From Prorocentrum cordatum (Eukaryota): a DNA stretch of 53,549 nucleotides. Numbering within the stretch: the stretch's first letter is position 1; every line of letters begins with the position of its first letter. Shown here piece after piece: positions 50 through 53,548 of this stretch. The notes beneath the pieces are model-generated. The model saw only the letters and a program-made list of their open reading frames with translations, did not search any database and had not been told where the DNA came from. The translations under genes were made by a program, and so were the position numbers. The stretch is from assembly GCA_963575745.1 (NCBI GenBank), contig CAUYUJ010000309.1, positions 62,001 to 115,549 on the forward strand, given 5' to 3'.

Positions 50-1530
50 AAAGGGCCTTCTTGCGGCCCTCTTGGGCTGTCTCGGGACCCTCTTGGGCCG
101 TCTTGGGGGACTTGGGCCGTCTTGGGGCCCTCTTGGGGCGCTCTTGGGCCCTCTTGGGGGCCTCCTGTGGCCCTCTTTGGGGCTCTCTTGGGAACCTTTC
201 GGGACCCCCTGGGGCCCCTCTTGGGCCGTCTTGGGGCTCTCTTGGGCCGTCTTGGAGCATTTGGGGCCGTCTTGGGGCCCTCTTGGGGGCCTCTTGTGCC
301 GTCTTGGGGCGGTCTTGGGGGGCCTCTCGGATCTAGGACCGGGCCGCTTTGGCCGTCTTGAAACCATCTTCGGCCGTTTTTGAACGCTCTTGGACCGTGT
401 TGGGGTCCTCCTGGGCATCCCTGAGGCCGTCCTGGAGGTTCCTGCAGCCGTCTTGGGAGCCTCTTGGGCCGTCTTGGCGCTCTTGGGGCTGGCTTGGGCC
501 GTCTGGGGCCGAACATAGCCGAACGTTGGGGCCATGGGATCTGGGGCGGGTCCTGCCCACCCCCATCACACCACCCCTTGTCAGTTCCCCCAACTGACGG
601 ATTACGACGCTACGCGCGCCGTCCGTCATCTGAGGCCGCCGACGCCAACCCCCTCACACTCCCCCGTATGAGTCCCCGGGCTACGGATCGCGACGCTGCG
701 CGCGCTTTCCGTTATCCGCCGCCCCCTCGTGATCACAGGGGTGCCCAGCGTGCTGAACGTCTGATGGTTTCTGGTTCTTTGAGACCTCCCCCTGAGGCTT
801 CGGCCCAGAACGCTGGCCACCCTGAAAGCCGCCGAAACTTTATCTCTCGTGGGTCGAATCGCCTCCCAGACAGCCCGGATGGCTCAAGATGGCCTCGAAG
901 ATGCTTCCAAGACAAGACGCCTACATGACGGCCAAGACGGCACCAAGAGAGCACCAAATGGCCCCACGATGCACCCAAGACGGCCCAAGATGGTCCAAGA
1001 GAGCCCAAGACGGCCCAGGAAACGCGCAAGAGGCCCCTAAGACGGCCCAAGAGGCCTCCAAGAGGTCCTCCAGGAAGGCCAGAAGAGGCCAAAATCATTG
1101 ATCTCCCTGAGATGTTTGAAAAAATTTGGCATTTTCTTCAAAACGGCCTCCCGACAGCCCAAGACGGCCCAAGAGACCCCCAAGATTGCGCCAAGATCGC
1201 CCAAGAGGCCTCAAAGATGGCCCCAAGACGGCTCAAGAGGCACTCAAGATGGCCCCCAAAGGGCCCCAAGACGGCCCAAGAGGCCTCCAAGACGCCCAGG
1301 ATGGCCTTCAAGACGGCCCCGAAGCGCCACAAGAGGGTCCCAAAACAGTCCAAAGAGGCTCCCAAGAAGACTTCCGACGGCGTCAGACGGGCCAGGAACG
1401 CCGTAAGACGGCCAAAGAGGCCCTGTAGAAGCCCCCAAATGTCCCCAAGAGGCCCAAGGAGGCCCCTAAGAGGCCCCCAGGAAGTTCTCAGGAGTCCCCA
1501 AGAATGACCCCAGAAGCTCCCAAGAGGTCT
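50..1530. repeat. Degenerate ~11-bp satellite (GGCCCCAAGA family) in two opposite orientations
   Basis: TCTTGGGGCC-like units at ~50-510 and GGCCCAAGA-like units at ~880-1530. Confidence 0.9.
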
Positions 1531-5577: not shown

Positions 5578-35699
<30,122 letters not shown>

Positions 35700-40626: not shown

Positions 40627-41198
40627 CCATTCAGACAGTTAAGTGAGATACGCGTGCACTCAACGGAGGAGGAGGAGGAGAGGAGGGGACGAGAGAGGGA
40701 CCAGGACAGGGCGATGGTATTTTCATGGCAGCGTGGCGACGCGCATCTCCGCCGAGCGTGGGCCCTGGTGGCCCCACGCTCAACGCGAGCGCGTGGGCCC
40801 TGACGGCCCGCGCGCTCGCGCTCTGGCACGCCTGCGGCCGCTCGGCCGACGCAGGCGTCTGGGAGCAAAGCGGGGTGGGTGGGCACCCGCGCGTCGGCCA
40901 GAGCCGAACGCTACGGACCCAAAATGGCTACCTGAGCCCACACCCCCTCCCACTTAACCTGCAGTCTACAACCAATCAGACTATACAAGTTAAGTGAGAT
41001 ACGCGTGCACTCAACGGAGGAGGAGGAGGAGAGGAGGGGACGAGAGAGGGACCAGGACAGGGCGATGGTATTTTCATGGCAGCGTGGCGACGCGCATCTC
41101 CGCCGAGCGTGGGCCCTGGTGGCCCCACGCTCAACGCGAGCGCGTGGGCCCTGACGGCCCGCGCGCTCGCGCTCTGGCACGCCTGCGGCCGCTCGGCC
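40627..41198 (-). repeat. Split direct repeats of the YR element: B1 (40972-41198), A2 (~40855-40971), B2 (40627-40847)
   Basis: 40637-40847 matches 40988-41198 (offset 351). The match extends to CCAwTCAGAC if a 6-bp deletion (TATACA) is allowed in B2. Confidence 0.85.
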
Positions 41199-41511
41199 AC
41201 GAGAAAAGAAAGACGCAGCCGCGCGCGCGGGGGCGCCCCGCCCGAGTGCGAGGGCGGGATCAGAGGCTGCAAGAGCCTCGCGCGCGCGGCCACTTGCCTG
41301 CAACCTTGAGGCCTTCCGCGCCCGCGCACCCAGAGCGCGGGCGCGGCGCGTGCGCGATGCGCGCAAAAGAACCGAAAAGGGTGGCGGCGCACGAGGCGCC
41401 GGGCGCAGAGCGCAAGTGTGGCCCCGACCGCACGGCGCGCAAGACGCGCAGCACGGCCGGGTCCAGGAAGCACGCGACGTGCGCGCAACGTTAAACTCCT
41501 CCAAGAGGGAG

Positions 41512-41660
41512 GATCGCAGGCGCCACCTGCGTACCGTAGGCTAAAAGAAAGAGATCGCAGGCGCCACCTGCGTACCGTAGGCTAAAAGAAACAAGATCGC
41601 AGGCGCCACCTGCGTACCGTAGGCTCAAGGATCGCAGGCGCCACCTGCGCACGGTAGGCT
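41512..41660. repeat. Four tandem 34-43-bp units with an internal hairpin in the element's 3' UTR
   Basis: GATCGCAGGCGCCACCTGCGTACCGTAGGCT occurs four times; CGCAGG/CCTGCG forms a 6-bp stem with a 5-nt loop. Confidence 0.9.
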
Positions 41661-41754
41661 GAGAGGAGGGCCGACTCACTCACAGGCCGCCGCCTTCAGC
41701 CCGCGCCCGCGATGCCGCGGGCGCTGGCGTCGGGGTACGGGGGGGGCTCCACGC

Positions 41755-44700
41755 CTAGATGGAGGGCGTGTTCCCCCGGCGGTCGCGGCTCTCGTCTCCG
41801 CTGCGGTCTCCGCCGCGCTCACTGGGGTCCCGGGGGCTGCCGCCATCGCCGCCCCTCGACGCGCGACCGTCCGCGCTGGGCCAGTCACGCTCACTCCGGC
41901 CGCGGCTGCCCTGGTCGCCCTTGGAGTGGCCGCCCTTGCCGCTCTTGTCGCCCTTGCCGCCGCTCTTGGAGCCCTTGGCGGCCTTGCCGGAGTGCTTGCC
42001 CTTGACCTTGCCGCCCTTGCCGCCCTTGTCGCCCGCGCCCTTGCCACGCCAGGCTGGGATCCCACCCCCGCCCGCGGCAGCCTCCGCGGCGGCAGCACGC
42101 CGCCGCTTTTTCTCCTGCTCGTACCAGCCGCCGCGAGGAGCGCGAAGCTGCCCAGCGTGCTTCCCGGTCTTACGCCGCGTGCGGCCGGGCGGGGTGTCGC
42201 CGCGCCGCGCCCACGCTGGGTCCCGCGCCAGACTGTGGCTGGGCGACCTCTCGCGCTTGGGCCGGTGGCGGCTGGGCGACCTCTCACGCTTGGGCCAGCT
42301 GAGGTCGCCCGGCGGGCGGTCCCCCTCAGCCCCCGCACCCGTGGCACCCGTGCTGGGGCGCTCGCCATGGCCGACACTGGGGCCCGGCGCCTCCCGCACG
42401 GTGTGGCCGCTCCGCCGGGCCTTCTCCACCACCGTCTTGGGTTTGCCGAAGGCGACGCGGCAAGCCTCGCAGTAGCTCACGTCGCACCCCTTACAGTGCC
42501 ACCGCAGGGCTCCGCTGTTAGCTCCGCCCGCGGGGCACATCTCGCAACCCCAACCGTCTCCCGGGTCAAAGGAGCTCCAGCGCATCTTGAGTGCGCATGT
42601 CGGGCAGGCAGGCGGCTGGATGGTCGGGCCATCCTCCCCGTCGCTGCCTGGGTCAGGGCCGCGAGGCCGGCTCGCCCACTCCGTGACCACCGTGCACGGG
42701 TCCGTCTTGTAGAACCGATAGTTCGACCTCATGCACTCCCGCGCGCGCTTTGCGTCAGCGCGGCGCTGGAACTCCACCAGCACGCACGGCTCCCGCTTGT
42801 GGCGGTGGTCGTACAGGAAGGCGATGTGTTTGACGACCCCAAAGGGCACGACCACCTGCCTGACCACCTCGGCGTCGACGTGGTGCGGTACCCGCTCGAT
42901 GCGGATGATGGACTCGCCCTCGTCGTGCTGGTCACTGGGCTGCTGCTGGGCGCCCTGGCGCTGCTCCTCCTTGCGCCTACGGCGGCTCCTCGAGCGCGGC
43001 TGGCGCTGGGGCGGACCGTCCCCCGCGCCTGGCGCCTCCTCTACCTCGGTCTTCACCTCGAAGGACCGCGGCGGCGCCCCCCCGCTCTTGGGCTTCAGGA
43101 CGGCCTCACGCTTCACGATGTCGGCCTTCGGGGGGGCGCCGCCCGTCTTGGGTTTCAAGACGGCCTCCTCCTCCTGTCCCCTGCGCCCGCGATCGCGAGG
43201 CGCATCGCGCTCGCGATCGCGGCGCTTCGCGCGCGAGGGCGAGCGCAAGGGCGCAGGGCGCCTCTCGCGCTTGCGGACCTCTTCGGCGAGGCGCTCCTGG
43301 CCCGGCGACCGCGCGGGCCGCGGGCGCGCCTTTGGAGCGCTTTTGCTCTGGCGCCGCGCGGCAGCCTGGATGGCCGCACGCGCCAGCGCCGCGGTGACCG
43401 CGTCCTCTCCCGCCTCGAGGACCGGGGCTGGGGTCGACTTCCCCTCGCCCCTGCTCGAGGCGTCGTCGTCGGTGAGCTCCACGACCGCCTCCGCGTCCAC
43501 TGTGCGCATCATGTCGAGCAGCCCCTTGTTGTGCTTGCAGAGCTCGCGGAGCTCCGGCATGGGCTGCCCCTGGAACTGGGCCAAGGCGAGCGCCAGCTTG
43601 GCCGCCTGGCGCTGGACCTTGATATTCGGCCCCGCGCCCACCCCCCACGCACCCCGCTTGCCGTCGACGATCACCAGCTGGCCGTGGTCCTCGCTCGCCC
43701 CCGCGGCCAAGCAAGCCGCCGCGATGCACGGGGCTGCTTCGTGGTCGTGGTTGACCACCTCGACGAGGTCCTCGCTGTCCAGCTCGTTCACCACCGTGTA
43801 CAGGATGTTGTGGGCGGCACTCCGGAGCTCGTCCGACAGCGCGGCCCCCGAGACGACGACGCCGAGGGGGTTCACCGCCATGATGCTGTAGTCATGGCCA
43901 CGCGCCTTGCTCTGGTCCGGGGCCACCAGGCCCACCAGGAATCCCATGATGCACGCTGCCGGAGCGCGGGGCGACGGCGCGGCTGGCGCGCGGGGCTGGG
44001 GTGCGCGCGCTGCTCGCGCGCCTCGCTCTGGAGTGGGAGATGGCTGCGGATGAGAGGACCAAGAGGAGGTGGGCGTGCCTGGGGCGATCGGGAGCGGTAG
44101 CGAAAGGGGGGTCGAGGGCGAGAGGTCCACCGGGATACCCCCACAACGCGAAGCCCCCGCCCTGACCTGAATACCCGTGGGACCCGCCTGCTGCTTTCCC
44201 ACACGCCCATTAACTCCTCGCCCTGGCTCGTATCTCACCAATTCCTCCTCTCCTTCCTCCTCCGTAGTTGACCCTGCTCGCGCCGAAGGGCGCGCCCAGG
44301 GGGGGCGCCCGGGCGCCCAGGCCGGGCGTTCCGAGGGCCTCAGATCGCTCCCAAACTGGGGCGGGTCGCTCCCGGCCAACTGGTCGGGGCGGGCGCCGGT
44401 CACGGCGCCGTCGTCACCGCGGGCGTCCGGGGCCAATAAGGCGTGGCCCTCCGCCATGCCTCGGGCGAACGGAGCCTGACGCCGATGGTCCTCCCAGAGG
44501 TATCCGTGGAAGGCGTCCGAGGACCACCTCCCGAACCTCTTGACCGCTTCCAGGTCGCGACAGGCGTGGTACAACGCCGTCGCGCCCCCGATGCGCAGGG
44601 AGTGGGATCCCATCTGGCCAGCGTCCACGCCGCAGGCGGCAGCCGCGAGTTGGAGGAGCCCCTGCACCTCCTCCCGCATAATCGGGTGGCCATCGGGCCG

Positions 44701-45289
44701 GCGGAACAGGGGGAGCCCCGCCTCGGTTCCTCGTCCAAACCGGTCCGGCAGCTCCCTCTGGAGGTCGGCTAGTGCGTCCACGACACACAACTCCACCCCC
44801 GAACGGTAATGGTTGCGTACGCAACCTGCGTTAAACTGGTCCGTCTTGGACGACGTGATCGTCAGTACTACCTCATCGCAGTCGCTGAGCCTTGCGCTGG
44901 GTGTACCTCCGCGCATCCCCATGTACGACCTGCCAAGCACCACCCTCCCATAACTCCCAGAGCGTCCTCTTGACCAAATAACACCCGAACGCGCGAGAGC
45001 ATGAAAATAGTACCAGCCCTCAAATCGCCGCCCAGAGATGAGGATCGCCAATTCCCCGACCGTGCCTCCCGTGGCTAACAGTAAAACTCTCGTAGCCAGA
45101 CAACGATCCGGCGTGCCGCACTTCCATCTTTCGCCTTTTCCTTCCCATCTCGGCGGATATCCCACCTTCATCGTGGTTCCAGAAGAGCCGGCGCCGATCG
45201 GAGGTCACATCCCCAAACCCGGCCAGGGTGTGGGCATATCGAATGGCGAACAGGCGCTGGCGGATGGTCGTGGCCCGCCTCTTCATCAC
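41755..45289 (-). CDS. Tyrosine recombinase (frameshifted N-terminal part) in frame with a ~730-aa RNA-binding-type extension
   Basis: Core-binding-like TIRQRLFAIRYAHTLAG in ORF 45020-45289. In the 1138-aa ORF: SKTD (~44840-44851), HSLRIGGAT (His 44602-44604) and GRWSSDAFHGY (Tyr 44500-44502). Downstream of an in-frame Met at 43947 come a dsRBD-like WGVGAGPNIKVQRQAAKLALAL, RS/RD-rich tracts, an RRM (IRIERVP...PCVLVEF), a CxxC-x16-CxxC-x13-CxxC-x4-CxxC-type finger and a GK-rich tail. Confidence 0.85.
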
Positions 45290-45839
45290 CTAGTACAGGT
45301 ACACGACATACCGATGAGGTCTCCCTCATCTTATAGCGGCGTCCCGAGTCTCGCCCCTCTTATGGGCCCGCCCTCGTGCCTCCGCCAAGTACCCAGTTAA
45401 CGCCACCCGCGGCACTCGGTCTCGCCCCGCCGTCCCTATCGCAAGCTTGGCCAACTATCCACCGCTGGTCGGTCGCAATCCAGCCGCGGCGTCGTGAGTT
45501 CCACTTGAATCCCTGCGCGCCCCCCGAGCCGCGACCAGCCACGCGGGCTTCACAGCGCGGACAGGGCCTGCGGGACGCCGACGGCCTTGCGCGGGTGCCG
45601 CGCCGGCCCACCCCCATGGCGCTTGCCTGGGCATCCCCGCCTCCAACAGCGAAGGTCACCGCCCCGACCCGCACCCCGCCTGCCTCGTCCTCCCCTGCTG
45701 CGGTGGACCGCGCGGTAGCAGGGGGGTCGAGCTGGTCCGCCAACCGAGCGGCGTCGTCCGTCGTCTTCCCCGCCTCCAGCGCAGCCTCGAATGGCCCGCT
45801 TGGGCGATCGGGGGCCTGAAGCCAGGCCTTTAGCCACAG

Positions 45840-48800
45840 CTAAACCATCTCGTCATTAGCGAGTCGGTCGTGATCGGGCCCGACGCCAGCGCGCGCCCCG
45901 GGTGCCTCGCCTGCGCTCGCTGCCTCTACGGCCTGCCTCAGCAGGCGCTCCGCCCACTGGAGCACCCAGCGGGCCGTGCGACGCGGGAGTGCACGAGTGG
46001 CCTGCCGCATGCGCTCGGCGATCGGCATACCTCCAAGGCCCAAGGCATCCCACAGCTCCGCCGTGCCCCCCTGGGCGCACCAGATTTCTTTCGGGTGCAG
46101 GGCTCGCACGGTCCAGCCGCCCTCGGACCCTTCCAGGATCAGGGTGTTCGCATAGCCCTTCCACGGGTCGGGCTTCGCCCGTGCCGTATGGCAGGGCCCG
46201 CGCGGATCATGAATCACCACGCGCTGGGCCCGCCCGCCTCCCGCGGGCTGCCACGTGCCCCGCGGCCAAGGCATCATGCGATCCCCCGTCGTCGAGATCC
46301 GAGGGTCCACGAGCAAGGTGCCGTTGTCGAGGTCCAGGCGGAGCTCATCCAGCGGTGGCCGCCCTGCCTCCTTCCAGAGCTGGCAGAGGCCGCGTGGCTC
46401 CACGCTGGGCTGTCCCAGGGGGGGTACGGGGCCCGATGCCCGAACCCGTTCCCCGCAACCCCAAACCTGGACCGCCCGCGCGCGTGCCGTGACGTCGCCG
46501 AAGTGCGTGCACAGTAGGCGCGTCTCTGGGGAGAGTGCCACATAGCCGAGGCGCCGTAAGCGCGCCCCTAGTCGCACTGCAGCGTAGTTGACGGGGGCGT
46601 CGAGCAGCACGGCCAGTGGCCGAGTGGTGATCAGCAGCCGCTCCAGGCCCGTCGCTTCGCGTCCACCGGGGTCCTCCGATAGTGACACGCACAGCCAGCG
46701 GGTCCGCGGGGCCCCAGTGGGGTCCTTGGGGTGGTCCCCGTCGTCCGGGTCCCATCGGTCACCGACATCCCACGGCGCTAGCAGCGCCGACCCACCGAGG
46801 CTCTCCCATGCCTCCCCAAAGGGGGGCCACGCGGTTCCCACCTCCAGCAGCCGCGCCCCCTCGACCTGCAGGGGGGCGTAGCGTGGCAGGGCCTCCCGGG
46901 CTCCTTTGACTTGGAGTGCAGCCGCGCGCCAGGGCCCGTCGTCTCCTGGCATCCGCAGCTCGCGCTGGGCGGCCTCCCCCACCAGCTCGCCCCACGGTGC
47001 TGCCGGCGACAGCTCGGTCCATCCGGCCTCCGCCATCCGCTGGCGTACCTCCTCCACCGTGGCACGAGTAATGAAGTCGGCCAGCTCGTTGTGGTAAGTC
47101 CGTAAGTAAAGCCCGTCCAGGACCCGGAACTTGTACCGTGGCTCCAGCATGGCCAGGACTCGAAGCAGGTGGCGCGCCACCGCGTTCCGCGCCCGGCGGC
47201 GTCGCAGCCAGCGGCTGACATTGCTGTTGTCAGTGACGTACGGCAATAGCAGCTGGAACCAGTCCGGGCCTTTCTCGGCCGCCAAGGCTATCAGACAGAG
47301 GAGTTCGACCACCGCGATGATCTCCCCCTCCCCCTGCCACGTGACCCCAGGGGCGGAGCGGAGCGTCTCCAGATAGGGAGCCGCCTCCGCCACGATGTAC
47401 TCGCGCGAGGACCAGTCCAGCGCACCGATCCGATCCAGGGTGGCATCGCCTCCCAGCCAGCGCAGCTTGCCGAGCGCCCCCGGGAGTGCAAGGGCCTCGC
47501 GAAGGCCTAGCAGGCCCTCGAAGGAGGTCTCGAAGTTACCCTCGACCGGCATCTCAAAGCAGACGCGCAGCCAATCCAAGGTCTGGTGCCACTCGTCCCA
47601 CGCAGCCTCTACCATCTCGGGGTCGCCCGGCGGATGGACGTAGGCCTGACCTGGGTCACCCGACAGCATTCGGTGGACCGCTGGGAGCTCCAGGCTCAGG
47701 GCCGGAGCTGCGCAGGCGCAGAACTGGCCGAGCCCACTTAGCTCCCTCGCGGTTCGCAGCCGGACCATGCGGCAGCCGAAGCTCAGCTCCGGCTCCGCCA
47801 ATAGGAAGCGCATCTTCATGGCCTTGGGCTCCGGGAGTCCAACTCGCTCGCGCTCGAAGCCCATACTGAGCCCCCAGATAATCTGCGTGGTGGAAGGCTC
47901 CCCCTCGGCGTCCCTCTTGCTGACGTTCACTGCTTCGGACCCAAACACCTCACGTATGGAGGCATCCAATGCGTCGCAGGCCATCCACGGTCGGACCCCA
48001 ATGTCGGGCTCCACCACCACAGGGTCATCCAAGAGCCACTCCGAGTGGAAGTGGGTGGTGTCGTGCCAGTGCGGCTCCCCAGGCCGATAGCTCTCGTGGA
48101 GCTCCCTCGCCGCCAGGGCGAGCATCATGTAATTGCCTGGGGCTCCCGCCCACCCAAACACCATGGCTAGGTAAACGACTCTGACGTCCCCCTCGATGCC
48201 AGCGTGGGCCCCCGGTAACGAGGTGCCAAAGTCCCCGACGTCCGCCGGGGCGAAGTCCAACCACTTGAAGGCCCGCGAGACGTCCCGCTTGGCGCAGAGG
48301 AGGCGCGCTCCGGGGTGGCGCGCGCGATGCCATACCGCCGTCCTCGCCACTTGCCGATGGCGTGGCTGGACGGCAGGCGGGTGGTCGCGCTTGTGCGTGG
48401 CGGCGTTGGCCGAGAGCATCGCATGGATCATACGCCCTTCGGACGATAAGGTTCTGTCCGGTAGCTGCTTCGGTACCCTCCCCAGCGGGGCTTCCACCAG
48501 CTCCGTCAGAAAACCCTCTGCCGCCTGGGACGCCACCAGGGCGATCCCCCAGGTCACATCCGCCCATACCTTCTGGTAGGCCTCGTCGATGTGGGCTCGC
48601 ACGCTGGGGTACGGCTGGGCTCGCTTGCGCCTCCGCGGCGCGCCCCGCCGCGCGGAGGCCCCCCCTTCCGCTAGCTCCCGGACGTACTCGAAGTGCTCTC
48701 GGCTTAAACACCGTCGCACCTTGTCCCCCAGGACGCCCCGAAGGGGGTTGCCTAGGCGCTCGAGGCGCGCGCGCCTAAGCAGCGCGGCCGCTTCCTTCAG

Positions 48801-48851
48801 GGACCCCGTCCGCTGGAGGAGCTGATCCCCCAGCCCTACCAGGGTCCGCAT
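45840..48851 (-). CDS. YR-element polyprotein segment: reverse transcriptase + RNase H + degenerate C5-MTase-like domain
   Basis: 1003-aa ORF. RT: GRVPK...GRMIH, KRDVSRAF, MVFGWAGAP, WLLDD (48024-48038). DIRS-type RNase H: GGDAT, IAVVEL, VTDNSNV, HNELADFITR. C-terminal MTase motif VI-X-like strings: RPLAVLLD, LRRLGY, HFGDVTARAR, RALHPKE, RQATRALP. The frame stays open past single TAG codons at both ends (48936-48938, 45840-45842). Confidence 0.9.
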   Translation of the reverse strand: MRTLVGLGDQLLQRTGSLKEAAALLRRARLERLGNPLRGVLGDKVRRCLSREHFEYVRELAEGGASARRGAPRRRKRAQPYPSVRAHIDEAYQKVWADVTWGIALVASQAAEGFLTELVEAPLGRVPKQLPDRTLSSEGRMIHAMLSANAATHKRDHPPAVQPRHRQVARTAVWHRARHPGARLLCAKRDVSRAFKWLDFAPADVGDFGTSLPGAHAGIEGDVRVVYLAMVFGWAGAPGNYMMLALAARELHESYRPGEPHWHDTTHFHSEWLLDDPVVVEPDIGVRPWMACDALDASIREVFGSEAVNVSKRDAEGEPSTTQIIWGLSMGFERERVGLPEPKAMKMRFLLAEPELSFGCRMVRLRTARELSGLGQFCACAAPALSLELPAVHRMLSGDPGQAYVHPPGDPEMVEAAWDEWHQTLDWLRVCFEMPVEGNFETSFEGLLGLREALALPGALGKLRWLGGDATLDRIGALDWSSREYIVAEAAPYLETLRSAPGVTWQGEGEIIAVVELLCLIALAAEKGPDWFQLLLPYVTDNSNVSRWLRRRRARNAVARHLLRVLAMLEPRYKFRVLDGLYLRTYHNELADFITRATVEEVRQRMAEAGWTELSPAAPWGELVGEAAQRELRMPGDDGPWRAAALQVKGAREALPRYAPLQVEGARLLEVGTAWPPFGEAWESLGGSALLAPWDVGDRWDPDDGDHPKDPTGAPRTRWLCVSLSEDPGGREATGLERLLITTRPLAVLLDAPVNYAAVRLGARLRRLGYVALSPETRLLCTHFGDVTARARAVQVWGCGERVRASGPVPPLGQPSVEPRGLCQLWKEAGRPPLDELRLDLDNGTLLVDPRISTTGDRMMPWPRGTWQPAGGGRAQRVVIHDPRGPCHTARAKPDPWKGYANTLILEGSEGGWTVRALHPKEIWCAQGGTAELWDALGLGGMPIAERMRQATRALPRRTARWVLQWAERLLRQAVEAASAGEAPGARAGVGPDHDRLANDEMV

Positions 48852-49194: not shown

Positions 49195-52100
49195 TTAAAT
49201 AAGATTGAGAAAATTTAAAATACAATAAAGCCTACCGCATTTTGAGCCGTCCCCTGAGGCCTGCAGGCGCTCAATTCCAGTGAAGTCGACGCCCTGCAGG
49301 CGCCCGGGCGCCTCCGCCCGGGCGATTTTGGGGGACGCCCCCGGGCCATCCTCCCATATAGGCGCCAACTGCCGACGCAGTTGGCTCACCGACCAGCGGA
49401 GATAGGCCCCTTTCAACACCTTTGCCCACGCGGCGCAAAGGCGGGGGGCCCAAACCTGCGCCTCCTTGGTGCGCTTAATGCCCGAGCCCGGCACGTGATC
49501 CTTCAGCTCGACGCGGTGGTGGTCACGGGGGCAACGTCGCGCCAACAGCAGAGCGTGCAGATGCAGCCGGGGGCTGACGAGCCACCAGCTGCCCTTGCGA
49601 TAGCGGCTCTCTGGCGCGTCGGACGGGGCCTTACCCCAGGCGCACATGTGGATCGGGACGATCATGGCCCCCGTCGCTCGACGCAGCTCGTGCATCGGGG
49701 CCTGGCCCCAAATCTTGGGGTAGCGGCCCGAGGGGCAGTAGGACTCGATGAGAAACTCCTTGCCAGCGTCGTGTAGGATGCGGCAGGTGTCGCACGTGAA
49801 CTGTGTGTGGCTGTTACCCACGCGCTCGAACTCTTTGGAGCCATCCCCCTCGGGGTGCTCCCACGTGCGGGTGCCCTGCGGGGTCCCGCCCGGCTGGGTC
49901 ATGAGCCCGAGGTCGGTGTACGAGCCACACGGGGTACCCCAGCACCAAACGTCGGCCACGTCGGGGCCCATGGGGGTCCGTGCGGCCTCCTGTAGGCGCG
50001 CGCGGACCGCTGGGTCGAGGGTGTCATGATCCGGCCGTGGGCCGGATTCTCGGAGGGGGTCGTCGTAATATTCGATCGGCTCCAGCACCCGGATGCCCTC
50101 GGCGCGAAGCGCGGCCGACCAATATCCCGAACCGGCGTACACCTCCTGGGCGATCAAACCGTACGCGAACGCGGGGTCGTGTCGAATTGGCATCGCGTTC
50201 GCTTCCAGGAGGCGTGCCTGGACGTCGGCTGGATGTTCCCCGAACGAGGCTGGCGCGCGTCCCACTGCGCGGCCCGCCCGACCTTCCGCTGCCTTGCAGT
50301 GGGTGCAGGGCGCGCTCTTGCCCGGGACGGTGGGTTCAACGTCCGGTCCTTCATCGAGCATCTCGCGCCAGCCGACACTTACGATCTCGCGGGACAGGCG
50401 TCCTGCGTGCCCCCAGCGCTGGCCTAGGGCCGCCGCCTCCGCGTGGGAGCGCGGGCGCAAGGCGCGCATATGGCCACGCCAGATCAGGAGCGGAATTACG
50501 TGATCCTCCGCGCCGACCCCCGTCCCCATTAGGTGGTCCACGCATAGGCGCCCACTGCCGTTGACACGGAGCACCTGGAGCGTGACGGCGTCGAGGTCGG
50601 CGACGGGGCATGCTGCCAGGCAGCGATAGTCCTTGTCGTGGTGCGGGTGCACCGCATCGTGGACGTAGGAGCGGACATCGGCCTCCAGGGCCGTGATCCA
50701 CGGCGGGGAGTCGCCCAGGGCACGCAGGGCCTCGTGGGCCTCCTCCCATAGCGCATGGCGATACGTCGCGGCCAACTGCTGCACCGCGTCCGGGCTGGGC
50801 TCACCTGTGCCCCCGCCCGCGCGTAGCAGGAGCACCCCCGCAGCTACGTGCAGTAGCAGGCACTGCCGCTCCTCGGTGTCGCCCACCTCCAGGCCCATCG
50901 CCTGGCCCATCTCCTCTGTAGGGCCGAGGCGGTCCCGATAGTCGATGAAGTCCCACTGGATGCGGGTGTCCTCGTCCCAGAAGGTATAGGACCCGCGGCC
51001 TATCAGCCCGCCGGGGTCCCACGCAACCGGGCCAACCTCGGCCCCGCCCTCGGTGACGTATCCTGCGGCGCAGCTAAGCGCCTCATGCAGGTCGGCTGCC
51101 TCGCTGCTGAGACCCCGATGGCCTCGGTCCACGGCTTCCTCGAGGGCTCGCTCCATAAGCCGCTCCCCGCGCAGGCGCGCCCCCAAGACGCGCCCGCGCA
51201 CGTGGCTCTGCAAGTGCTCGCTGGCCCCCTTCAGAGGTGCGAAGATGCCCTCGGCTTCGAGCTCCTGCATGAGTTTGAGGCGAAGCTCCGGCCCATCACC
51301 CGCGGGCTGGGCGTCCCATGTGGCCGCCGCGCGCGGGTGGTCGTGGTCTTCGAGCCATCCGAAGTCGGGGCCCTTAACCGCTTCCCGGAGGTCGGATTCC
51401 ATCGCGGTAAGCTGGAGCGCAGTGTAGTCGTCCGGGGCCTGCCCCGGGCCCGGGTCGCCCGCTGCTCGCGAGCCGCTGCCACGGCCACGACCCTTCTCCT
51501 TCTGGGAGTCAGGGGCAGCAGGGGGGGACGTGTCCTCGCCAACCTTCTCGGCCTCGGCTGCCTTGGCTTGCGAGCGTAGCTGCGCAATCATCCCATCCAC
51601 CTGCTTGGGGTCGATCCAGGGCGCCCCAAGGAGCCCCCCGCGCCTCGTGAGCTGCATGACTACCGAGTAGTCCAATCCGCGCGTTGACTTGATGGGGTCA
51701 TGGGAGTTAGGGCAGTCGCAAGCCTTCCGCGAGCAGCCCATGTGCGTGGTGGCCCCCCAGCAGATAGGGACGTTGTCTTTATTGCGGGGCGCATGCGCCA
51801 CGGATCGCGTCCGCTCCGGGCGTGTTAGTTCCTTGCCCGCTGGGTACGCCCTCTTGGGGGCTGTCCCCGCTCGGGCCCCGGTGCCCGCCTTGGGCCCCGC
51901 CTTCGGCTGGGGCCCAGCCCCCGCCTTGGGCCTGTCATCCCCCTGCGCCGTGGGCCGGGGATCGCCCATCTCCTCGCTCCCTCCCGCTTTGGGCGGTCGC
52001 TTCGTGAGGTGGGCGTTCAGCTGCCCATTGAGGAGGCGCGTGCGGCCTTGCGCCGGGGCACGACCACCTGCTGGTAGTAGGCGTTCGGGTCCCCGAGGTC

Positions 52101-52266
52101 GAACGTTCGGGGCAAAACGTAGCCGTTCTCCGGCATGAGTAGGATGTACTTGATGTCCTCCCTCCTCGGGTTCTCGGCGTCGAGCTCCCGACAGAGCCGG
52201 CGCCTCAGCTCCCGCAACTCCTCGACCCAGGTGCTTCGGAGCTCTTCCCACAGATCCTTGACCCAA
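49195..52266 (-). CDS. YR-element polyprotein segment: CCCH-type Zn finger + putative Cys-protease-like domain + C5 cytosine DNA methyltransferase
   Basis: 1023-aa ORF, with the true frame probably entered by frameshift near 52040. C-x8-C-x6-C-x3-H at ~51700-51762. QCLLLH...LLIWRGHMRAL at ~50865-50458. MTase motif I EVYAGSG (~50125-50145), motif IV WGTPC (Cys 49927-49929), motif VI FLIES, HMCAWG...RYRK, and motif X-like AQVWAPRLCAAWA. Confidence 0.8.
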   Translation of the reverse strand: MGQGSVGRAPKHLGRGVAGAEAPALSGARRREPEEGGHQVHPTHAGERLRFAPNVRPRGPERLLPAGGRAPAQGRTRLLNGQLNAHLTKRPPKAGGSEEMGDPRPTAQGDDRPKAGAGPQPKAGPKAGTGARAGTAPKRAYPAGKELTRPERTRSVAHAPRNKDNVPICWGATTHMGCSRKACDCPNSHDPIKSTRGLDYSVVMQLTRRGGLLGAPWIDPKQVDGMIAQLRSQAKAAEAEKVGEDTSPPAAPDSQKEKGRGRGSGSRAAGDPGPGQAPDDYTALQLTAMESDLREAVKGPDFGWLEDHDHPRAAATWDAQPAGDGPELRLKLMQELEAEGIFAPLKGASEHLQSHVRGRVLGARLRGERLMERALEEAVDRGHRGLSSEAADLHEALSCAAGYVTEGGAEVGPVAWDPGGLIGRGSYTFWDEDTRIQWDFIDYRDRLGPTEEMGQAMGLEVGDTEERQCLLLHVAAGVLLLRAGGGTGEPSPDAVQQLAATYRHALWEEAHEALRALGDSPPWITALEADVRSYVHDAVHPHHDKDYRCLAACPVADLDAVTLQVLRVNGSGRLCVDHLMGTGVGAEDHVIPLLIWRGHMRALRPRSHAEAAALGQRWGHAGRLSREIVSVGWREMLDEGPDVEPTVPGKSAPCTHCKAAEGRAGRAVGRAPASFGEHPADVQARLLEANAMPIRHDPAFAYGLIAQEVYAGSGYWSAALRAEGIRVLEPIEYYDDPLRESGPRPDHDTLDPAVRARLQEAARTPMGPDVADVWCWGTPCGSYTDLGLMTQPGGTPQGTRTWEHPEGDGSKEFERVGNSHTQFTCDTCRILHDAGKEFLIESYCPSGRYPKIWGQAPMHELRRATGAMIVPIHMCAWGKAPSDAPESRYRKGSWWLVSPRLHLHALLLARRCPRDHHRVELKDHVPGSGIKRTKEAQVWAPRLCAAWAKVLKGAYLRWSVSQLRRQLAPIWEDGPGASPKIARAEAPGRLQGVDFTGIERLQASGDGSKCGRLYCILNFLNLI

Positions 52267-53548
52267 TGGTCTGGGAACTCCGATGGGTCCCTCTCGAAGG
52301 CCGCCTCCAAGAACCCTAACGACCGCCGACGCTCCGCCCCGGTGCGTGCGACCCTATATGAAATGGACTCGAACCTTCTGGAGCTCTCGCCGACCGGGCC
52401 CTCTTGGCAACCAGGTCGCCTATTGTGGTGAATCTGGAGCCGTTGGCGTGCTCCAGCTTGTCGTTCCACAGGTAAGCCGATAGCCAATCGGAAGTCCTCG
52501 AGCACGAGCGCGGGGGCGACAAAGATTCGTTCCTACTCGCCAGGTCAGTGAATAAAATCATATCTACAACAAACTAAATAAAAAAAAAAAGAAAAAAGAA
52601 AACAATAATGATTAAAAAAAAAAATGTGATGGGGCCCGTCCCGAAGGCGAGCGCCGCGTAGCCGTGTGCCACACGGTTGGTAACCAGGCAGGGAAACCCG
52701 ATCGTCATGAGCGTGCTCTTGGAGTGCGCACACATGCGCTTGAGTGAGTCGAACAAGTCCTTCCCCGTGATACCCTCGCAGGCCTCAACCACGAAGGTGT
52801 TGCATCCCCGGGCTATGTAAAGATCAAGTTCCTCGTCCCGACCGATCCCTGCCCTGGTGCCCCGGGCCTTCTTGTCGCCCTCGGTGGCCCGCGCCTGCCG
52901 CTCGGCGGCGAGGACGTGGCGTTCAGTGAGGCGGTTCTGGCGATCCAGGCGCTCGATAATCTGGGCTTCGGCCTCGACTGTAAGCCCGCCCAGGGCCCCC
53001 GCCGCCCCGGCGTCGTCTGGACCCCCAGCTCGCTCCCCACCCAGGCCGCCCCCGTGGGGCGTCTGGCCAGTGAGGTGGCCAAGGACCGAGGCCCCGTCGA
53101 GGAGCGGGTTGGCCCCACGGGCGGCCCCCCCGCGTCCATCGCGTGCCAGCAGGCCCCGATCACCCAGCAAGCCCCGTCGTGGGCCCGTGGGGTGGATGGG
53201 GGGCATGGCACCGAAGAGCTCGCGTCGGGGTCCCTGCTTCGGGCTGGGATCCCGTCCCCGCGCCGAGCGACTCCGCGACCCCACACGTGAGAGGCTCCCC
53301 TGCAGGGGAACCTTGTCGGCGGCCGCAGCACGCTCCCGCGCGCGCGCTTCCAGCTGCGCATCCTCCAAATCCGCGAGGGCGCGCTCTAGGTCGGACCCCA
53401 GTGGGCCCGCCGCTGCCACCTGTGCGACCCTCCGCCGCAGCTGCCGCTCCGCCTGATCAAGCGGAACCCCGAGCAGGTCCGCGGCCATACCTAATGCACT
53501 GAGAGCCGCCGCTTTGCCCCCCCGTCCTTTGAGATCCTCGGCTCGCAA
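52017..53548 (-). pseudogene. Gag-like N-terminal region of the YR element (frameshifted or interrupted; 5' partial)
   Basis: ORFs 52574-53548 and 52017-52505 give helical, coiled-coil-like protein (LERALADLEDAQLEARARE; WVKDLWEELRSTWVEELRELRRRL). They lie directly upstream of the CCCH finger and are broken by an AT-rich patch at ~52550-52625 and by frameshifts. The gag call rests on position. Confidence 0.6.

What the first reader, a model, noticed from the sequence alone, without database searches (positions are those of the whole stretch)
50440..51070. Putative OTU-like cysteine protease inside a DIRS-group element
Seen: ERQCLLLHVAAG (Cys codon 50860-50862) followed 130 residues later by VIPLLIWRGHMRALRP (His codon 50470-50472). 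Established: OTU proteases have a Cys at the start of a helix (C-L-hydrophobic) and a C-terminal hydrophobic strand-G-H-Y-x-x-L motif at similar spacing; DIRS-group elements are generally described as lacking a protease. Inference: the domain is a polyprotein maturation protease or a deubiquitinase-like host-evasion enzyme, as in RNA viruses.
Basis: inference. Interest (0 to 1): 0.85.

Follow-up and report, generated by a model that had tools for sequence, protein, structure and literature searches.

The report
OTU-fold protease in dinoflagellate DIRS-like retroelement
A mobile element of the tyrosine-recombinase (DIRS-like) kind, common in dinoflagellates, carries a very divergent but well conserved domain with the fold and the cysteine-histidine pair of OTU deubiquitinase-type proteases, a part that such elements are not known to have.

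Summary
ERQCLLLHVAAG and VIPLLIWRGHMRALRP lie in one 1023-codon frame (49195-52266, minus), Cys469 at 50860-50862 and His599 at 50470-50472. Across 55 diverged homologues, Cys is kept in 54 of 55 aligned rows and His in 55 of 56. An AlphaFold2 model of residues 395-660 is confident (pLDDT 92.2, pTM 0.90), with Cys opening a helix and His opening a strand. A Foldseek-free search of 48,161 solved chains puts OTU deubiquitinases at ranks 1-31 (best Z 8.6). No sequence profile recognises the domain. It lacks the usual acidic residue two places after His. I could not measure Cys-His proximity, because no coordinates are given.

Context: the frame runs CCCH finger, helical part, OTU fold, then a C5 cytosine-methyltransferase fold. 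Downstream are a reverse transcriptase/RNase H frame and a tyrosine recombinase. Named relatives are all dinoflagellates. Three nearly invariant [KR]-small-Gly motifs, including RRGG, sit at domain borders. From this I infer self-processing, possibly with deubiquitinase activity; neither is tested. My literature searches found OTU domains in Helitrons and Ginger1, none in tyrosine-recombinase retroelements. Verdict: a new variant of a known kind, of moderate to high interest.

The parts
49195..52266 (-). Open frame of 1023 codons (ORF_A). It holds a CCCH finger, a helical part, the OTU-fold domain and a C5-methyltransferase-fold domain.
   Evidence: ORF list; 928 relatives at E <= 0.001; conservation map
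50287..51054 (-). OTU-fold domain, residues ~405-660.
   Evidence: AlphaFold2 model pLDDT 92.2, pTM 0.90. VIA-align ranks 1-31 are OTU deubiquitinases, best 5lru_A Z 8.6. Foldseek PDB and BFVD agree.
50860..50874 (-). Motif E-E-R-Q-C (residues 465-469). Cys469 (50860-50862) is the proposed nucleophile and sits at the first residue of helix 75-88 of the model.
   Evidence: E465 54/55, R467 48/55, Q468 55/55, C469 54/55; secondary structure; translation
50470..50475 (-). G598-H599. His599 (50470-50472) is the proposed general base and sits at the first residue of strand 205-210 of the model, after a beta hairpin.
   Evidence: G598 46/56, H599 55/56
50623..50661 (-). Conserved block H536-D537 ... 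H543-x-K545-D546-x-R548 in the helical lobe. Its role is unknown. Candidates: the partner of His599, part of a substrate site, or, with the CxxC, a metal site.
   Evidence: H536 53/56, D537 56/56, H543 54/56, K545 48/56, D546 55/56, R548 56/56
50941..50943 (-). Asp442, 27 residues before Cys469. It is a candidate third catalytic residue placed upstream, as Asp70 is in A20.
   Evidence: D442 53/55. A20 residues Asp70/Cys103/His256 come from PMC11311569 (passage read). The equivalence is inferred, not shown.
50296..50307 (-). C654-x-x-C657 at the C-terminal end of the domain; possible zinc ligands.
   Evidence: C654 39/40, C657 40/40; this tail is modelled with pLDDT ~91
51634..51645 (-). R208-R-G-G211, a ubiquitin-tail-like motif 19 residues after the CCCH finger; candidate cleavage site 1.
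   Evidence: R/K208 40/40, R209 40/40, G210 40/40, G211 39/40 in 40 rows
51061..51069 (-). Residues 400-402, A-A-G in this copy and [KR]-[AV]-G in the family, in the disordered stretch just before the first strand of the OTU fold; candidate cleavage site 2.
   Evidence: K/R 48 of 53, A/V 45 of 53, G 51 of 52 rows with a letter; model residues 1-10 have pLDDT < 50
50272..50280 (-). R663-A-G665 in the gappy linker between the OTU fold and the methyltransferase fold; candidate cleavage site 3.
   Evidence: R/K 39/40, A/V 33/40, G 39/40
51700..51762 (-). CCCH-type finger, C169-x8-C178-x6-C185-x3-H189.
   Evidence: conserved C, W, H, GC, C, H columns
49387..50193 (-). C5 cytosine DNA methyltransferase fold (residues ~692-960) with F/Y-x-G, P-C and E motifs.
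   Evidence: model pLDDT 88.4. VIA: DNMT3A 4u7t_C Z 11.8, rmsd 4.1, 213 aligned. Foldseek: 61 hits at E <= 0.001, best DNMT1 2.2e-5. No Pfam hit.
45840..48851 (-). ORF_B: reverse transcriptase/RNase H frame of the same element.
   Evidence: RT-like motifs read in the translation. Atlas feature score 0.96 to RVT_1 and RT_RNaseH clusters. Colinear with fused homologues. No Pfam hit.
44449..45310 (-). Tyrosine recombinase part of the element.
   Evidence: PF00589 E 0.002 (18.4 bits, below the cutoff of 27.1) in the window frame. PF00589 E 1.9e-5 in homologue P0023. tblastn colinearity.
52032..52337 (-). Conserved upstream coding piece in another frame. The frame changes near 52039-52041, where other copies carry four more bases.
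   Evidence: tblastn of homologues; insertions relative to the window in runs X7, X6 and X1 (table 4)
52640..52918 (-). Further conserved upstream coding piece (in ORF_D, which runs off the window end).
   Evidence: tblastn of homologues

Best explanation
Residues ~405-660 of the 1023-codon frame form a very divergent cysteine peptidase of the OTU superfamily. Cys469 is the nucleophile, at the start of a helix. His599 is the general base, at the start of a strand. The domain sits inside the first polyprotein of a dinoflagellate tyrosine-recombinase (DIRS-like) retroelement, between a CCCH finger plus helical part and a C5 cytosine-methyltransferase fold. Most likely it cuts after Gly in basic-small-Gly motifs that mimic the tail of ubiquitin (R-G-G). 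Three such motifs are conserved in the polyprotein itself: RRGG211 after the finger, [KR][AV]G402 just before the protease, and [KR][AV]G665 just after it. Cutting there would free the nucleic-acid-binding part, the protease and the methyltransferase. The same pocket could also take ubiquitin or a ubiquitin-like tail, as in tymovirus PRO and arterivirus PLP2, which do both. Shown here: the frame, the conservation, the fold match and the domain order. Inferred: catalysis, the cleavage sites and the substrates.
For: (1) Near-invariance of Cys469 (54/55) and His599 (55/56), and of E465, Q468, D537, D546 and R548, among 55 relatives that are mostly 30-45% identical to the window.
(2) A confident model (pLDDT 92.2, pTM 0.90) puts Cys at the first residue of helix 75-88 and His at the first residue of strand 205-210.
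(3) VIA-align against 48,161 chains: ranks 1-31 are OTU-family deubiquitinases (Z 8.6 to 4.9). Rank 32 is TYMV proteinase (Z 4.5), ranks 33-34 are herpesvirus-type deubiquitinases, then unrelated kinases at Z <= 3.7. Foldseek PDB: 30 of the 35 rows shown are OTU enzymes or deubiquitinases. BFVD lists OTU-bearing viral proteins.
(4) Alignment ranges fit catalytic equivalence. LotA second OTU domain: model 72..213 against chain 300..543, with catalytic Cys303 (PMC7472693), puts model Cys75 at 303 if the first three residues are ungapped. TYMV PRO: model 56..211 against 773..875, with His869 (PMC3968130), puts both His six residues before the end of the alignment.
(5) Three [KR]-small-G motifs are nearly invariant inside otherwise variable or disordered linkers at domain borders.
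(6) The frame joins several enzyme-like domains, and in relatives it is fused on to the RT and the recombinase. Tyrosine-recombinase retroelements have no other protease (PMC3783388).
(7) Copies differ mostly at silent sites in this domain: 7 silent and 3 replacement sites among the differences shown (40 rows of 171), none of them at the Cys or His codon.
(8) TYMV PRO shows that an OTU-type enzyme can work without a third catalytic residue and can both process a polyprotein and remove ubiquitin (PMC3968130).
Against: No sequence method sees OTU. Pfam gives no hit at E <= 1 for the window or for any of the 41 aligned members. PDB sequence and profile searches give nothing below E 0.2. The Atlas gives only leads (0.81-0.83; one cluster with PF02338 on 19% of members).
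The fold match is middling: best Z 8.6 with rmsd 4.7 A, best Foldseek E 0.016, TM 0.31/0.48.
The residue two after His is R/V/T, not Asp/Asn, and the usual D-G-x-C motif is E-x-R-Q-C.
The Cys-His distance in the model could not be read.
The pattern [KR][AVG]G occurs 10 times in this G/A/R-rich frame, so only its conservation counts, and the window copy has Ala instead of Lys/Arg at site 2.
Cellular OTU enzymes are isopeptidases that want Gly-Gly, not Ala or Val before the last Gly (my knowledge of the family).
The conserved region continues for about 20 residues beyond RRGG, so that motif may be a structural turn or an RNA-binding RGG.
OTU domains of Helitrons and Ginger1 have no shown processing role (PMC2836005).
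Confidence: 0.45

Rival explanations
1. The domain is an active OTU-type deubiquitinase, or a protease for a ubiquitin-like modifier, that acts only on host or element proteins carrying such modifiers and does not cut the polyprotein. It would protect element proteins from degradation, or steer a ubiquitin-dependent step such as DNA repair, or the recruitment or turnover of the neighbouring methyltransferase.
For: All the best structural matches are deubiquitinases. Nairovirus OTU domains are among them and take no part in polyprotein cleavage (PMC3968130). OTU domains in Ginger1 and Helitron proteins were proposed to act through the ubiquitin pathway (PMC2836005). The Cys/His conservation fits this reading as well as the best one.
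Against: It leaves unexplained why three basic-small-Gly motifs are nearly invariant in linkers at the domain borders. It also leaves open how a frame with several enzyme domains matures without a protease. A ubiquitin-binding surface was not tested.
Confidence: 0.3
2. The domain has an OTU-like shape but is not a hydrolase. The conserved Cys, His and Asp residues bind a metal or hold the structure, and the domain serves as a scaffold or a binding module, for example for ubiquitin, nucleic acid or the methyltransferase.
For: The family keeps many other His/Asp/Cys residues (H536, D537, H543, D546, C654, C657) that could form a metal site. The canonical acidic partner at His+2 and the D-G-x-C motif are missing. 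There is no sequence-level link to OTU. Inactive OTU folds exist: FAM105A is among the matches (rank 25), though that it is inactive is my recollection.
Against: The single invariant Cys of the core and the invariant His sit exactly where OTU enzymes have their nucleophile and base, at a helix start and at a strand start after a hairpin. The alignment ranges fit the catalytic residues of LotA and TYMV PRO. A zinc site and catalysis can coexist, as in arterivirus PLP2 (PMC3968130).
Confidence: 0.15
3. The match is an accident of a decayed, non-coding repeat: a long open frame in GC-rich DNA with a chance Cys and His.
For: The window has many long spurious frames on both strands because of its high G+C. 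This copy is damaged upstream (frame break near 52039-52041).
Against: There are 928 protein relatives, 87 of them at E <= 1e-30. The model is confident. Silent changes exceed replacements between copies. The relatives are colinear over ~8 kb.
Confidence: 0.01

Closest known systems
Cellular OTU deubiquitinases, A20-like branch (Cezanne/OTUD7B, A20, TRABID, VCPIP1) and OTUD1/2/3
   Same: Best fold matches: 5lru_A Z 8.6, 4bou_A 8.2, 3dkb_A 8.0, 3zrh_A 7.8. Cys opens a helix and His opens a strand. A conserved Asp lies upstream of the Cys (D442), in the place A20 has its third residue Asp70; that equivalence is inferred.
   Different: No detectable sequence similarity. The motif is E-x-R-Q-C instead of D-G-x-C. 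There is no acidic residue at His+2. Two long extra helices carry an H-D / H-H-D-K-D-x-R block, and a CxxC follows. The domain is part of a retroelement polyprotein, not a cellular regulator.
Viral OTU-type processing proteases/deubiquitinases: tymovirus PRO (TYMV) and arterivirus PLP2
   Same: A papain/OTU-like Cys-His enzyme inside a replication polyprotein, cutting after small residues at Gly-containing sites and also removing ubiquitin. TYMV PRO lacks a third catalytic residue, and PLP2 has a zinc site within the fold (PMC3968130). TYMV PRO is a fold match (4a5u_A Z 4.5, rmsd 3.3, 97 aligned).
   Different: The match is much weaker than to cellular and nairovirus OTUs. The host here is a retroelement of a protist, not an RNA virus. 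Cleavage is only inferred here.
OTU domains of DNA transposons (Ginger1 transposases, Helitron/Helentron proteins)
   Same: An OTU-type cysteine protease domain fused to the proteins of a mobile element; its role in transposition is unknown (PMC2836005; PMC6431247).
   Different: Those domains are recognised by Pfam PF02338 and sit in DNA transposons. This one is not recognised by any profile and sits in a tyrosine-recombinase retroelement, next to a C5 methyltransferase fold.
SymbioDIRS-Dnmt3 retrotransposons of Symbiodinium (de Mendoza et al. 2018)
   Same: Dinoflagellate DIRS-like elements with a divergent RT that Pfam misses, a tyrosine recombinase and a cytosine methyltransferase domain in the polyprotein (PMC5890265, passages read).
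   Different: The main text of that paper holds no 'protease' and no 'OTU'; I did not read its supplements. The methyltransferase fold here gives no Pfam PF00145 hit, and I did not test whether it is of Dnmt3 origin.
Ulp1-like cysteine protease domains of NeSL/Utopia non-LTR retrotransposons
   Same: A protease of the ubiquitin-like-modifier kind at the N-terminus of a retrotransposon protein (PMC4640811).
   Different: A different fold family (Ulp1, with His-Asp-Cys order; my knowledge of the family) and a different class of retroelement.

Membership tests
OTU superfamily of cysteine peptidases (Pfam PF02338 and relatives) | OTU fold: a helical lobe plus a beta sheet, papain-like. | tested here: met
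   VIA-align over 48,161 chains: ranks 1-31 are OTU enzymes, Z 8.6-4.9, 98-176 residues aligned. Foldseek PDB: 30 of 35 rows shown. BFVD agrees. The strength is middling.
OTU superfamily of cysteine peptidases (Pfam PF02338 and relatives) | Match to the family's sequence profile. | tested here: not met
   No PF02338 hit at E <= 1 for the window frame or for any of the 41 aligned members. PDB sequence and profile searches give nothing.
OTU superfamily of cysteine peptidases (Pfam PF02338 and relatives) | Invariant catalytic Cys at the N-terminus of a helix. | tested here: met
   C469 54/55; first residue of helix 75-88 in the model.
OTU superfamily of cysteine peptidases (Pfam PF02338 and relatives) | Invariant catalytic His at the start of a strand of the C-terminal sheet. 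| tested here: met
   H599 55/56; first residue of strand 205-210, after hairpin 196-202.
OTU superfamily of cysteine peptidases (Pfam PF02338 and relatives) | Acidic or amide third residue, usually two residues after the His. | tested here: not met
   Position 601 is R 37, V 6, T 6 of 56. Known exceptions: A20 uses the upstream Asp70 and TYMV PRO has none.
OTU superfamily of cysteine peptidases (Pfam PF02338 and relatives) | Cys and His side chains adjacent in space. | not testable with these tools
Only the alignment ranges bear on it.
OTU superfamily of cysteine peptidases (Pfam PF02338 and relatives) | Hydrolysis of ubiquitin or ubiquitin-like (iso)peptide bonds. | not testable with these tools
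   Needs a bench assay.
DIRS-like (tyrosine-recombinase) retroelements | Reverse transcriptase and RNase H. | tested here: inconclusive
   No Pfam hit. RT-like motifs are read in the translation. Atlas score 0.96 to RVT_1/RT_RNaseH clusters. PMC5890265 says Symbiodinium DIRS RTs escape Pfam.
DIRS-like (tyrosine-recombinase) retroelements | Tyrosine recombinase instead of a DDE integrase. | tested here: inconclusive
   PF00589 E 0.002, 18.4 bits against a cutoff of 27.1. Homologue P0023: 25 bits, E 1.9e-5. H-x-L-R and G-R-W...Y motifs are read in the translation.
DIRS-like (tyrosine-recombinase) retroelements | Terminal repeats of the split or inverted kind. | tested here: inconclusive
   The 5' end lies beyond the window. 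Only unrelated direct repeats were found at 40637-41666.
C5 cytosine DNA methyltransferases (for the neighbouring domain) | Fold, and the P-C motif with its catalytic Cys. | tested here: met
   VIA: DNMT3A Z 11.8 and other C5 enzymes ahead of generic Rossmann folds at ~9.4. Foldseek: 61 hits at E <= 0.001. Cys780 of T-P-C is >= 90% conserved. The Pfam profile is not matched.

The most novel reading that the evidence does not exclude
Dinoflagellate DIRS-like retroelements have their own way of maturing a polyprotein. An OTU-derived protease excises itself and frees a finger protein ending in -RRGG and an active C5 cytosine methyltransferase, by cutting at ubiquitin-tail mimics. The same enzyme also strips ubiquitin from element or chromatin proteins, which would couple retrotransposition to the host's ubiquitin-dependent control of DNA methylation. 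This would be the first protease of any tyrosine-recombinase retroelement and a founding member of a new OTU family.
Probability: 0.3. Interest if true: 0.8.

Novelty: new variant of a known kind. Interest (0 to 1): 0.62.

Why it matters
Tyrosine-recombinase retroelements are textbook cases of retroelements without a protease (PMC3783388). A conserved OTU-type enzyme in an abundant dinoflagellate lineage (928 cluster representatives) would change that picture. It would also give a testable answer to how their large multi-enzyme polyproteins mature.

The finding adds a retroelement to the list of mobile elements that took up ubiquitin-pathway proteases (Helitrons, Ginger1, Mutator, NeSL). It defines an OTU family that no profile library recognises, so it is now left unannotated in dinoflagellate genomes. 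It also places a deubiquitinase-type domain directly beside a cytosine methyltransferase, in organisms with unusual genome-wide methylation.

Tried and rejected
- Word-indexed homologue search on residues 390-660: no hit at E <= 0.001 among 8000 scored candidates of near length. The exhaustive library search then found 928, so says nothing.
- Search of the window's own genome: one search failed on my wrong frame; after correction, answered that no genome is held.
- tblastn of the four frames against the window: only the self matches, so no second copy lies in the window.
- Earlier findings of the scan: nothing by place, sequence or words.
- Sequence searches of PDB with the domain and with the family profile: nothing below E 0.2.
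- Protein Atlas for the domain: scores 0.83/0.81, leads only.
- Complex prediction of the OTU domain with the finger-RRGG segment (residues 150-235): 'no answer', score 0.00. The alignments were not used and the controls were not run. It is no evidence either way.
- Pfam scan of 36 other long frames of the window (of the 76 frames of 200 or more codons that one search listed), looking for ubiquitin or other context: only sub-threshold hits.
- Repeat search for the element's terminal repeats: none that frame the element.
- RNA evidence: one 216-base contig from one metatranscriptome (X20), over the methyltransferase part and not the OTU part. That is too little to claim expression.
- Programmed -1 frameshift at 52035-52060: considered and set aside, because other copies carry four more bases there and homologues read through.
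- HD-phosphohydrolase reading of the H-D / H-H-D-K-D block: considered and set aside, because the fold search gives no such match among the 50 rows shown.
Full report
**1. What is in the sequence**

The minus strand holds an open frame of 1023 codons from 52266 down to 49195. Translating the exact coordinates gives Cys for 50860-50862 (residue 469) and His for 50470-50472 (residue 599), 130 residues apart. One detail differs: the C-terminal motif is G-H-M-x-x-L rather than G-H-Y-x-x-L.

**2. Is it more than chance?**

The window is G+C-rich (0.66-0.73 over 40-52 kb) and full of long spurious frames, so an open frame alone proves little. An exhaustive HMMER search of 1.84 billion cluster representatives found 928 relatives at E <= 0.001, 435 at <= 1e-10 and 87 at <= 1e-30. 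Only the best 150 were available to me, and 55 of them span the domain.

In a MAFFT alignment of these 55 with the window (56 rows) the conservation is as follows:
- Cys469 is kept in 54 of the 55 rows with a letter.
- His599 is kept in 55 of 56.
- Also near-invariant are E465 (54/55), Q468 (55/55), D442 (53/55), A510 (56/56), H536 (53/56), D537 (56/56), H543 (54/56), D546 (55/56) and R548 (56/56).
- The other cysteines of the folded part are not kept (13, 3 and 1 of 56).

Contigs of public runs show that the element is a high-copy family with many diverged copies: 1432 pieces laid in run X7 and 247 in X6. The tool showed 40 difference rows out of 171. Of these, 23 are silent and 17 change the residue. 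Within the domain, 7 sites are silent and 3 are replacements, and none touches the Cys or His codon. This is a partial sample but fits purifying selection.

**3. The fold**

AlphaFold2 on residues 395-660, with a 41-sequence alignment, gave pLDDT 92.2 and pTM 0.90. Cys469 (model residue 75) is the first residue of helix 75-88. His599 (model 205) is the first residue of strand 205-210, directly after hairpin strand 196-202.

Three fold searches agree:
- **Foldseek against PDB.** Nothing at E <= 0.001 (best 0.016), but 30 of the 35 rows shown are OTU enzymes or deubiquitinases. The five others are a nuclear pore protein, NrdR twice, Rv3168 and YeaZ.
- **VIA-align, independent of Foldseek, against 48,161 representative chains.** 3 chains reach Z >= 8 and 29 reach Z >= 5. 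Ranks 1-31 are OTU-family deubiquitinases. They include Cezanne 5lru_A (Z 8.6, rmsd 4.7 A, 176 aligned), SnOTU (8.4), OTUD3 (8.2), A20 (8.0), TRABID (7.8), OTUD1/2, yeast Otu1/Otu2, VCPIP1, OTUB1, nairovirus OTUs, and Wolbachia and Legionella OTUs. Two of these rows (3von_A, 6ks5_B) are titled only 'ubiquitin protease' and 'deubiquitinase'; that they are OTU-family is my recollection. Rank 32 is TYMV proteinase (Z 4.5), ranks 33-34 are herpesvirus-type deubiquitinases, and from rank 35 on come unrelated kinases at Z <= 3.7.
- **BFVD.** It lists OTU-bearing viral proteins, 2 of them at E <= 0.001.

The tool warns that Z near 8 is a common best score. The weight therefore lies in the uniformity of the list and the drop after it, not in the score.

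**4. Do Cys and His match the catalytic pair?**

I could not read coordinates: one search shows that none are held. Only indirect evidence is available.
- For the second OTU domain of LotA, the alignment runs model 72..213 against chain 300..543. Its catalytic residue is Cys303 (PMC7472693, passage read). Model Cys75 falls on it if the first three residues are ungapped.
- For TYMV PRO, the ranges are 56..211 against 773..875, and the catalytic His is His869 (PMC3968130, passage read). Both His residues lie six positions before the end of the alignment.
- The secondary-structure positions (helix start, and strand start after a hairpin) are those of OTU enzymes, from my knowledge of the family.

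**5. What does not fit**
- No sequence method links the family to OTU; the Atlas gives leads only.
- The residue two after His is Arg, Val or Thr, not Asp or Asn.
- The motif before the Cys is E-x-R-Q-C.

Known OTU enzymes do vary here. A20 uses Asp70, which lies 33 residues before Cys103 (PMC11311569). TYMV PRO has no third residue (PMC3968130). In this family D442 lies 27 residues before the Cys, and the best matches are of the A20-like branch. That D442 plays the role of Asp70 is only a guess.

The family also keeps an H-D / H-H-D-K-D-x-R block in the helical lobe and a CxxC at the domain's end (39/40 and 40/40). These may form a zinc site, as arterivirus PLP2 has one inside its OTU fold.

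**6. Context**

Homologous gene models are colinear with the window from 52918 down to about 44450. The order is:
- two upstream coding pieces (52640-52918, and 52032-52337 in another frame);
- this frame (ORF_A);
- a 1003-codon frame with RT and RNase H features (45840-48851), which has no Pfam hit but scores 0.96 in the Atlas to RVT_1 clusters;
- a tyrosine recombinase (PF00589 E 0.002 in the window; E 1.9e-5 in relative P0023).

Within ORF_A the conservation map shows a CCCH finger (169-189), a helical part, the OTU fold, and a C-terminal domain. I folded the C-terminal domain separately (pLDDT 88.4). It matches C5 cytosine DNA methyltransferases:
- VIA gives DNMT3A Z 11.8, then DNMT3B, M.HhaI, DIM2, MET1 and DNMT1, ahead of generic Rossmann enzymes.
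- Foldseek gives 61 hits at E <= 0.001, all shown rows being C5 enzymes.

The named relatives are Polarella glacialis, Symbiodinium, Cladocopium, Amphidinium carterae and Prorocentrum cordatum, plus an ocean metagenome scaffold. This fits the DIRS-like elements of Symbiodinium, with a divergent RT and a cytosine methyltransferase, described by de Mendoza et al. Their main text mentions neither a protease nor OTU (PMC5890265, passages read; supplements not read).

The window copy is damaged upstream. The frame changes near 52039-52041, where contigs of three runs carry four more bases. The OTU and methyltransferase parts are intact.

**7. How it most likely works**

Three short motifs of the form basic-small-Gly are nearly invariant:
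- **Site 1: R-R-G-G, residues 208-211.** R209 40/40, G210 40/40, G211 39/40.
- **Site 2: [KR]-[AV]-G, residues 400-402.** K/R 48 of 53, G 51 of 52. It lies in the stretch the model leaves disordered, just before the first strand.
- **Site 3: [KR]-[AV]-G, residues 663-665.** R/K 39/40, G 39/40. It lies in the gappy linker before the methyltransferase fold.

They resemble the R-G-G end of ubiquitin, and they lie exactly between domains. From this I infer that the enzyme cuts the element's own polyprotein at these motifs, and that it may also take ubiquitin-like tails, as TYMV PRO and arterivirus PLP2 do.

Three cautions apply:
- The pattern occurs 10 times in this Gly/Ala/Arg-rich frame, so only its conservation counts.
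- The window copy has Ala for the basic residue at site 2.
- Conservation continues beyond RRGG, so that motif could be structural.

A complex prediction gave no answer and is not used as evidence. I put 0.45 on a self-processing OTU protease (with or without deubiquitinase activity), 0.30 on a deubiquitinase that does not process the polyprotein, 0.15 on a non-catalytic OTU-like module and 0.01 on an artefact.

**8. What is known, and novelty**

OTU domains are known in Ginger1 transposases and in Helitron/Helentron proteins (PMC2836005; PMC6431247). Ulp1-like proteases are known in NeSL/Utopia non-LTR elements (PMC4640811). Tyrosine-recombinase retroelements are described as lacking a protease (PMC3783388).

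Three full-text searches found no report of an OTU domain in such elements:
- OTU + DIRS + retrotransposon + cysteine protease;
- OTU + tyrosine recombinase + retrotransposon;
- OTU + cysteine protease + non-LTR + reverse transcriptase + retrotransposon.

These searches cover only the open-access library, and Repbase reports are not in it. I therefore rate the domain a new variant of a known kind. It has an OTU-superfamily fold and active-site layout but forms a sequence family that no profile recognises, it lies in a class of retroelement where no protease was known, and it sits beside a cytosine methyltransferase.

Noticed in passing
window 49387-50193 (-): The C-terminal domain of the same frame has the fold of C5 cytosine DNA methyltransferases (DNMT3A Z 11.8; Foldseek best 2.2e-5), with conserved F-x-G, P-C and E motifs. 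It gives no Pfam hit. It may be a very divergent relative of the retrotransposon DNMTs reported in Symbiodinium.
   Followed up: partly
window 52039-52041: Contigs of three public runs carry four more bases here than the window does. At the same place the conserved coding sequence changes frame, so this copy seems to have a small deletion that cuts the upstream part of the polyprotein off from ORF_A.
   Followed up: partly
window 50296-50307 and 50623-50661 (-): A CxxC (39/40, 40/40) at the end of the OTU fold and conserved His536/His543 in the helical lobe could form a zinc site. Without coordinates I could not check this.
   Followed up: no
window 41755-44449 (-): The frame that holds the tyrosine recombinase runs on for about 900 more codons of Arg/Gly/Lys-rich sequence, with an RRM (PF00076, E 1.7e-4, just above the cutoff) and a weak B-box-like match. 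I do not know whether this is part of the element or a neighbouring gene read through.
   Followed up: no
window 40637-41198 and 41503-41666: Two identical 211-base direct repeats lie 351 bases apart, followed by four tandem copies of a ~41-base unit, just beyond the 3' side of the element. They might belong to its terminal structure.
   Followed up: no
window 45840-46900 (-), C-terminal third of ORF_B: About 350 residues after the RNase H part are conserved in relatives (tblastn reaches 45798), but I did not assign them to any domain. In classical DIRS elements a methyltransferase-like domain sits in this place.
   Followed up: no
window 49195-52266: Near-identical sequence (0.5-0.6 of sampled words) is held by runs of several studies labelled marine, freshwater and urban metagenome, as well as by three runs labelled with organisms. 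Word depth is very high in two of these. The family is abundant and widespread.
   Followed up: partly
window 10911-11010; 18001-20000; 28001-30000: An assembly gap of 100 N, and two stretches of much lower G+C (0.36 and 0.43) than the rest of the window.
   Followed up: no
window 52574-52640 (-): The frame ORF_D ends in a run of Phe/Ile codons (a pyrimidine/A+T-rich tract) between two conserved coding pieces of the element. Relatives have about 70 residues there against about 100 codons in the window.
   Followed up: no
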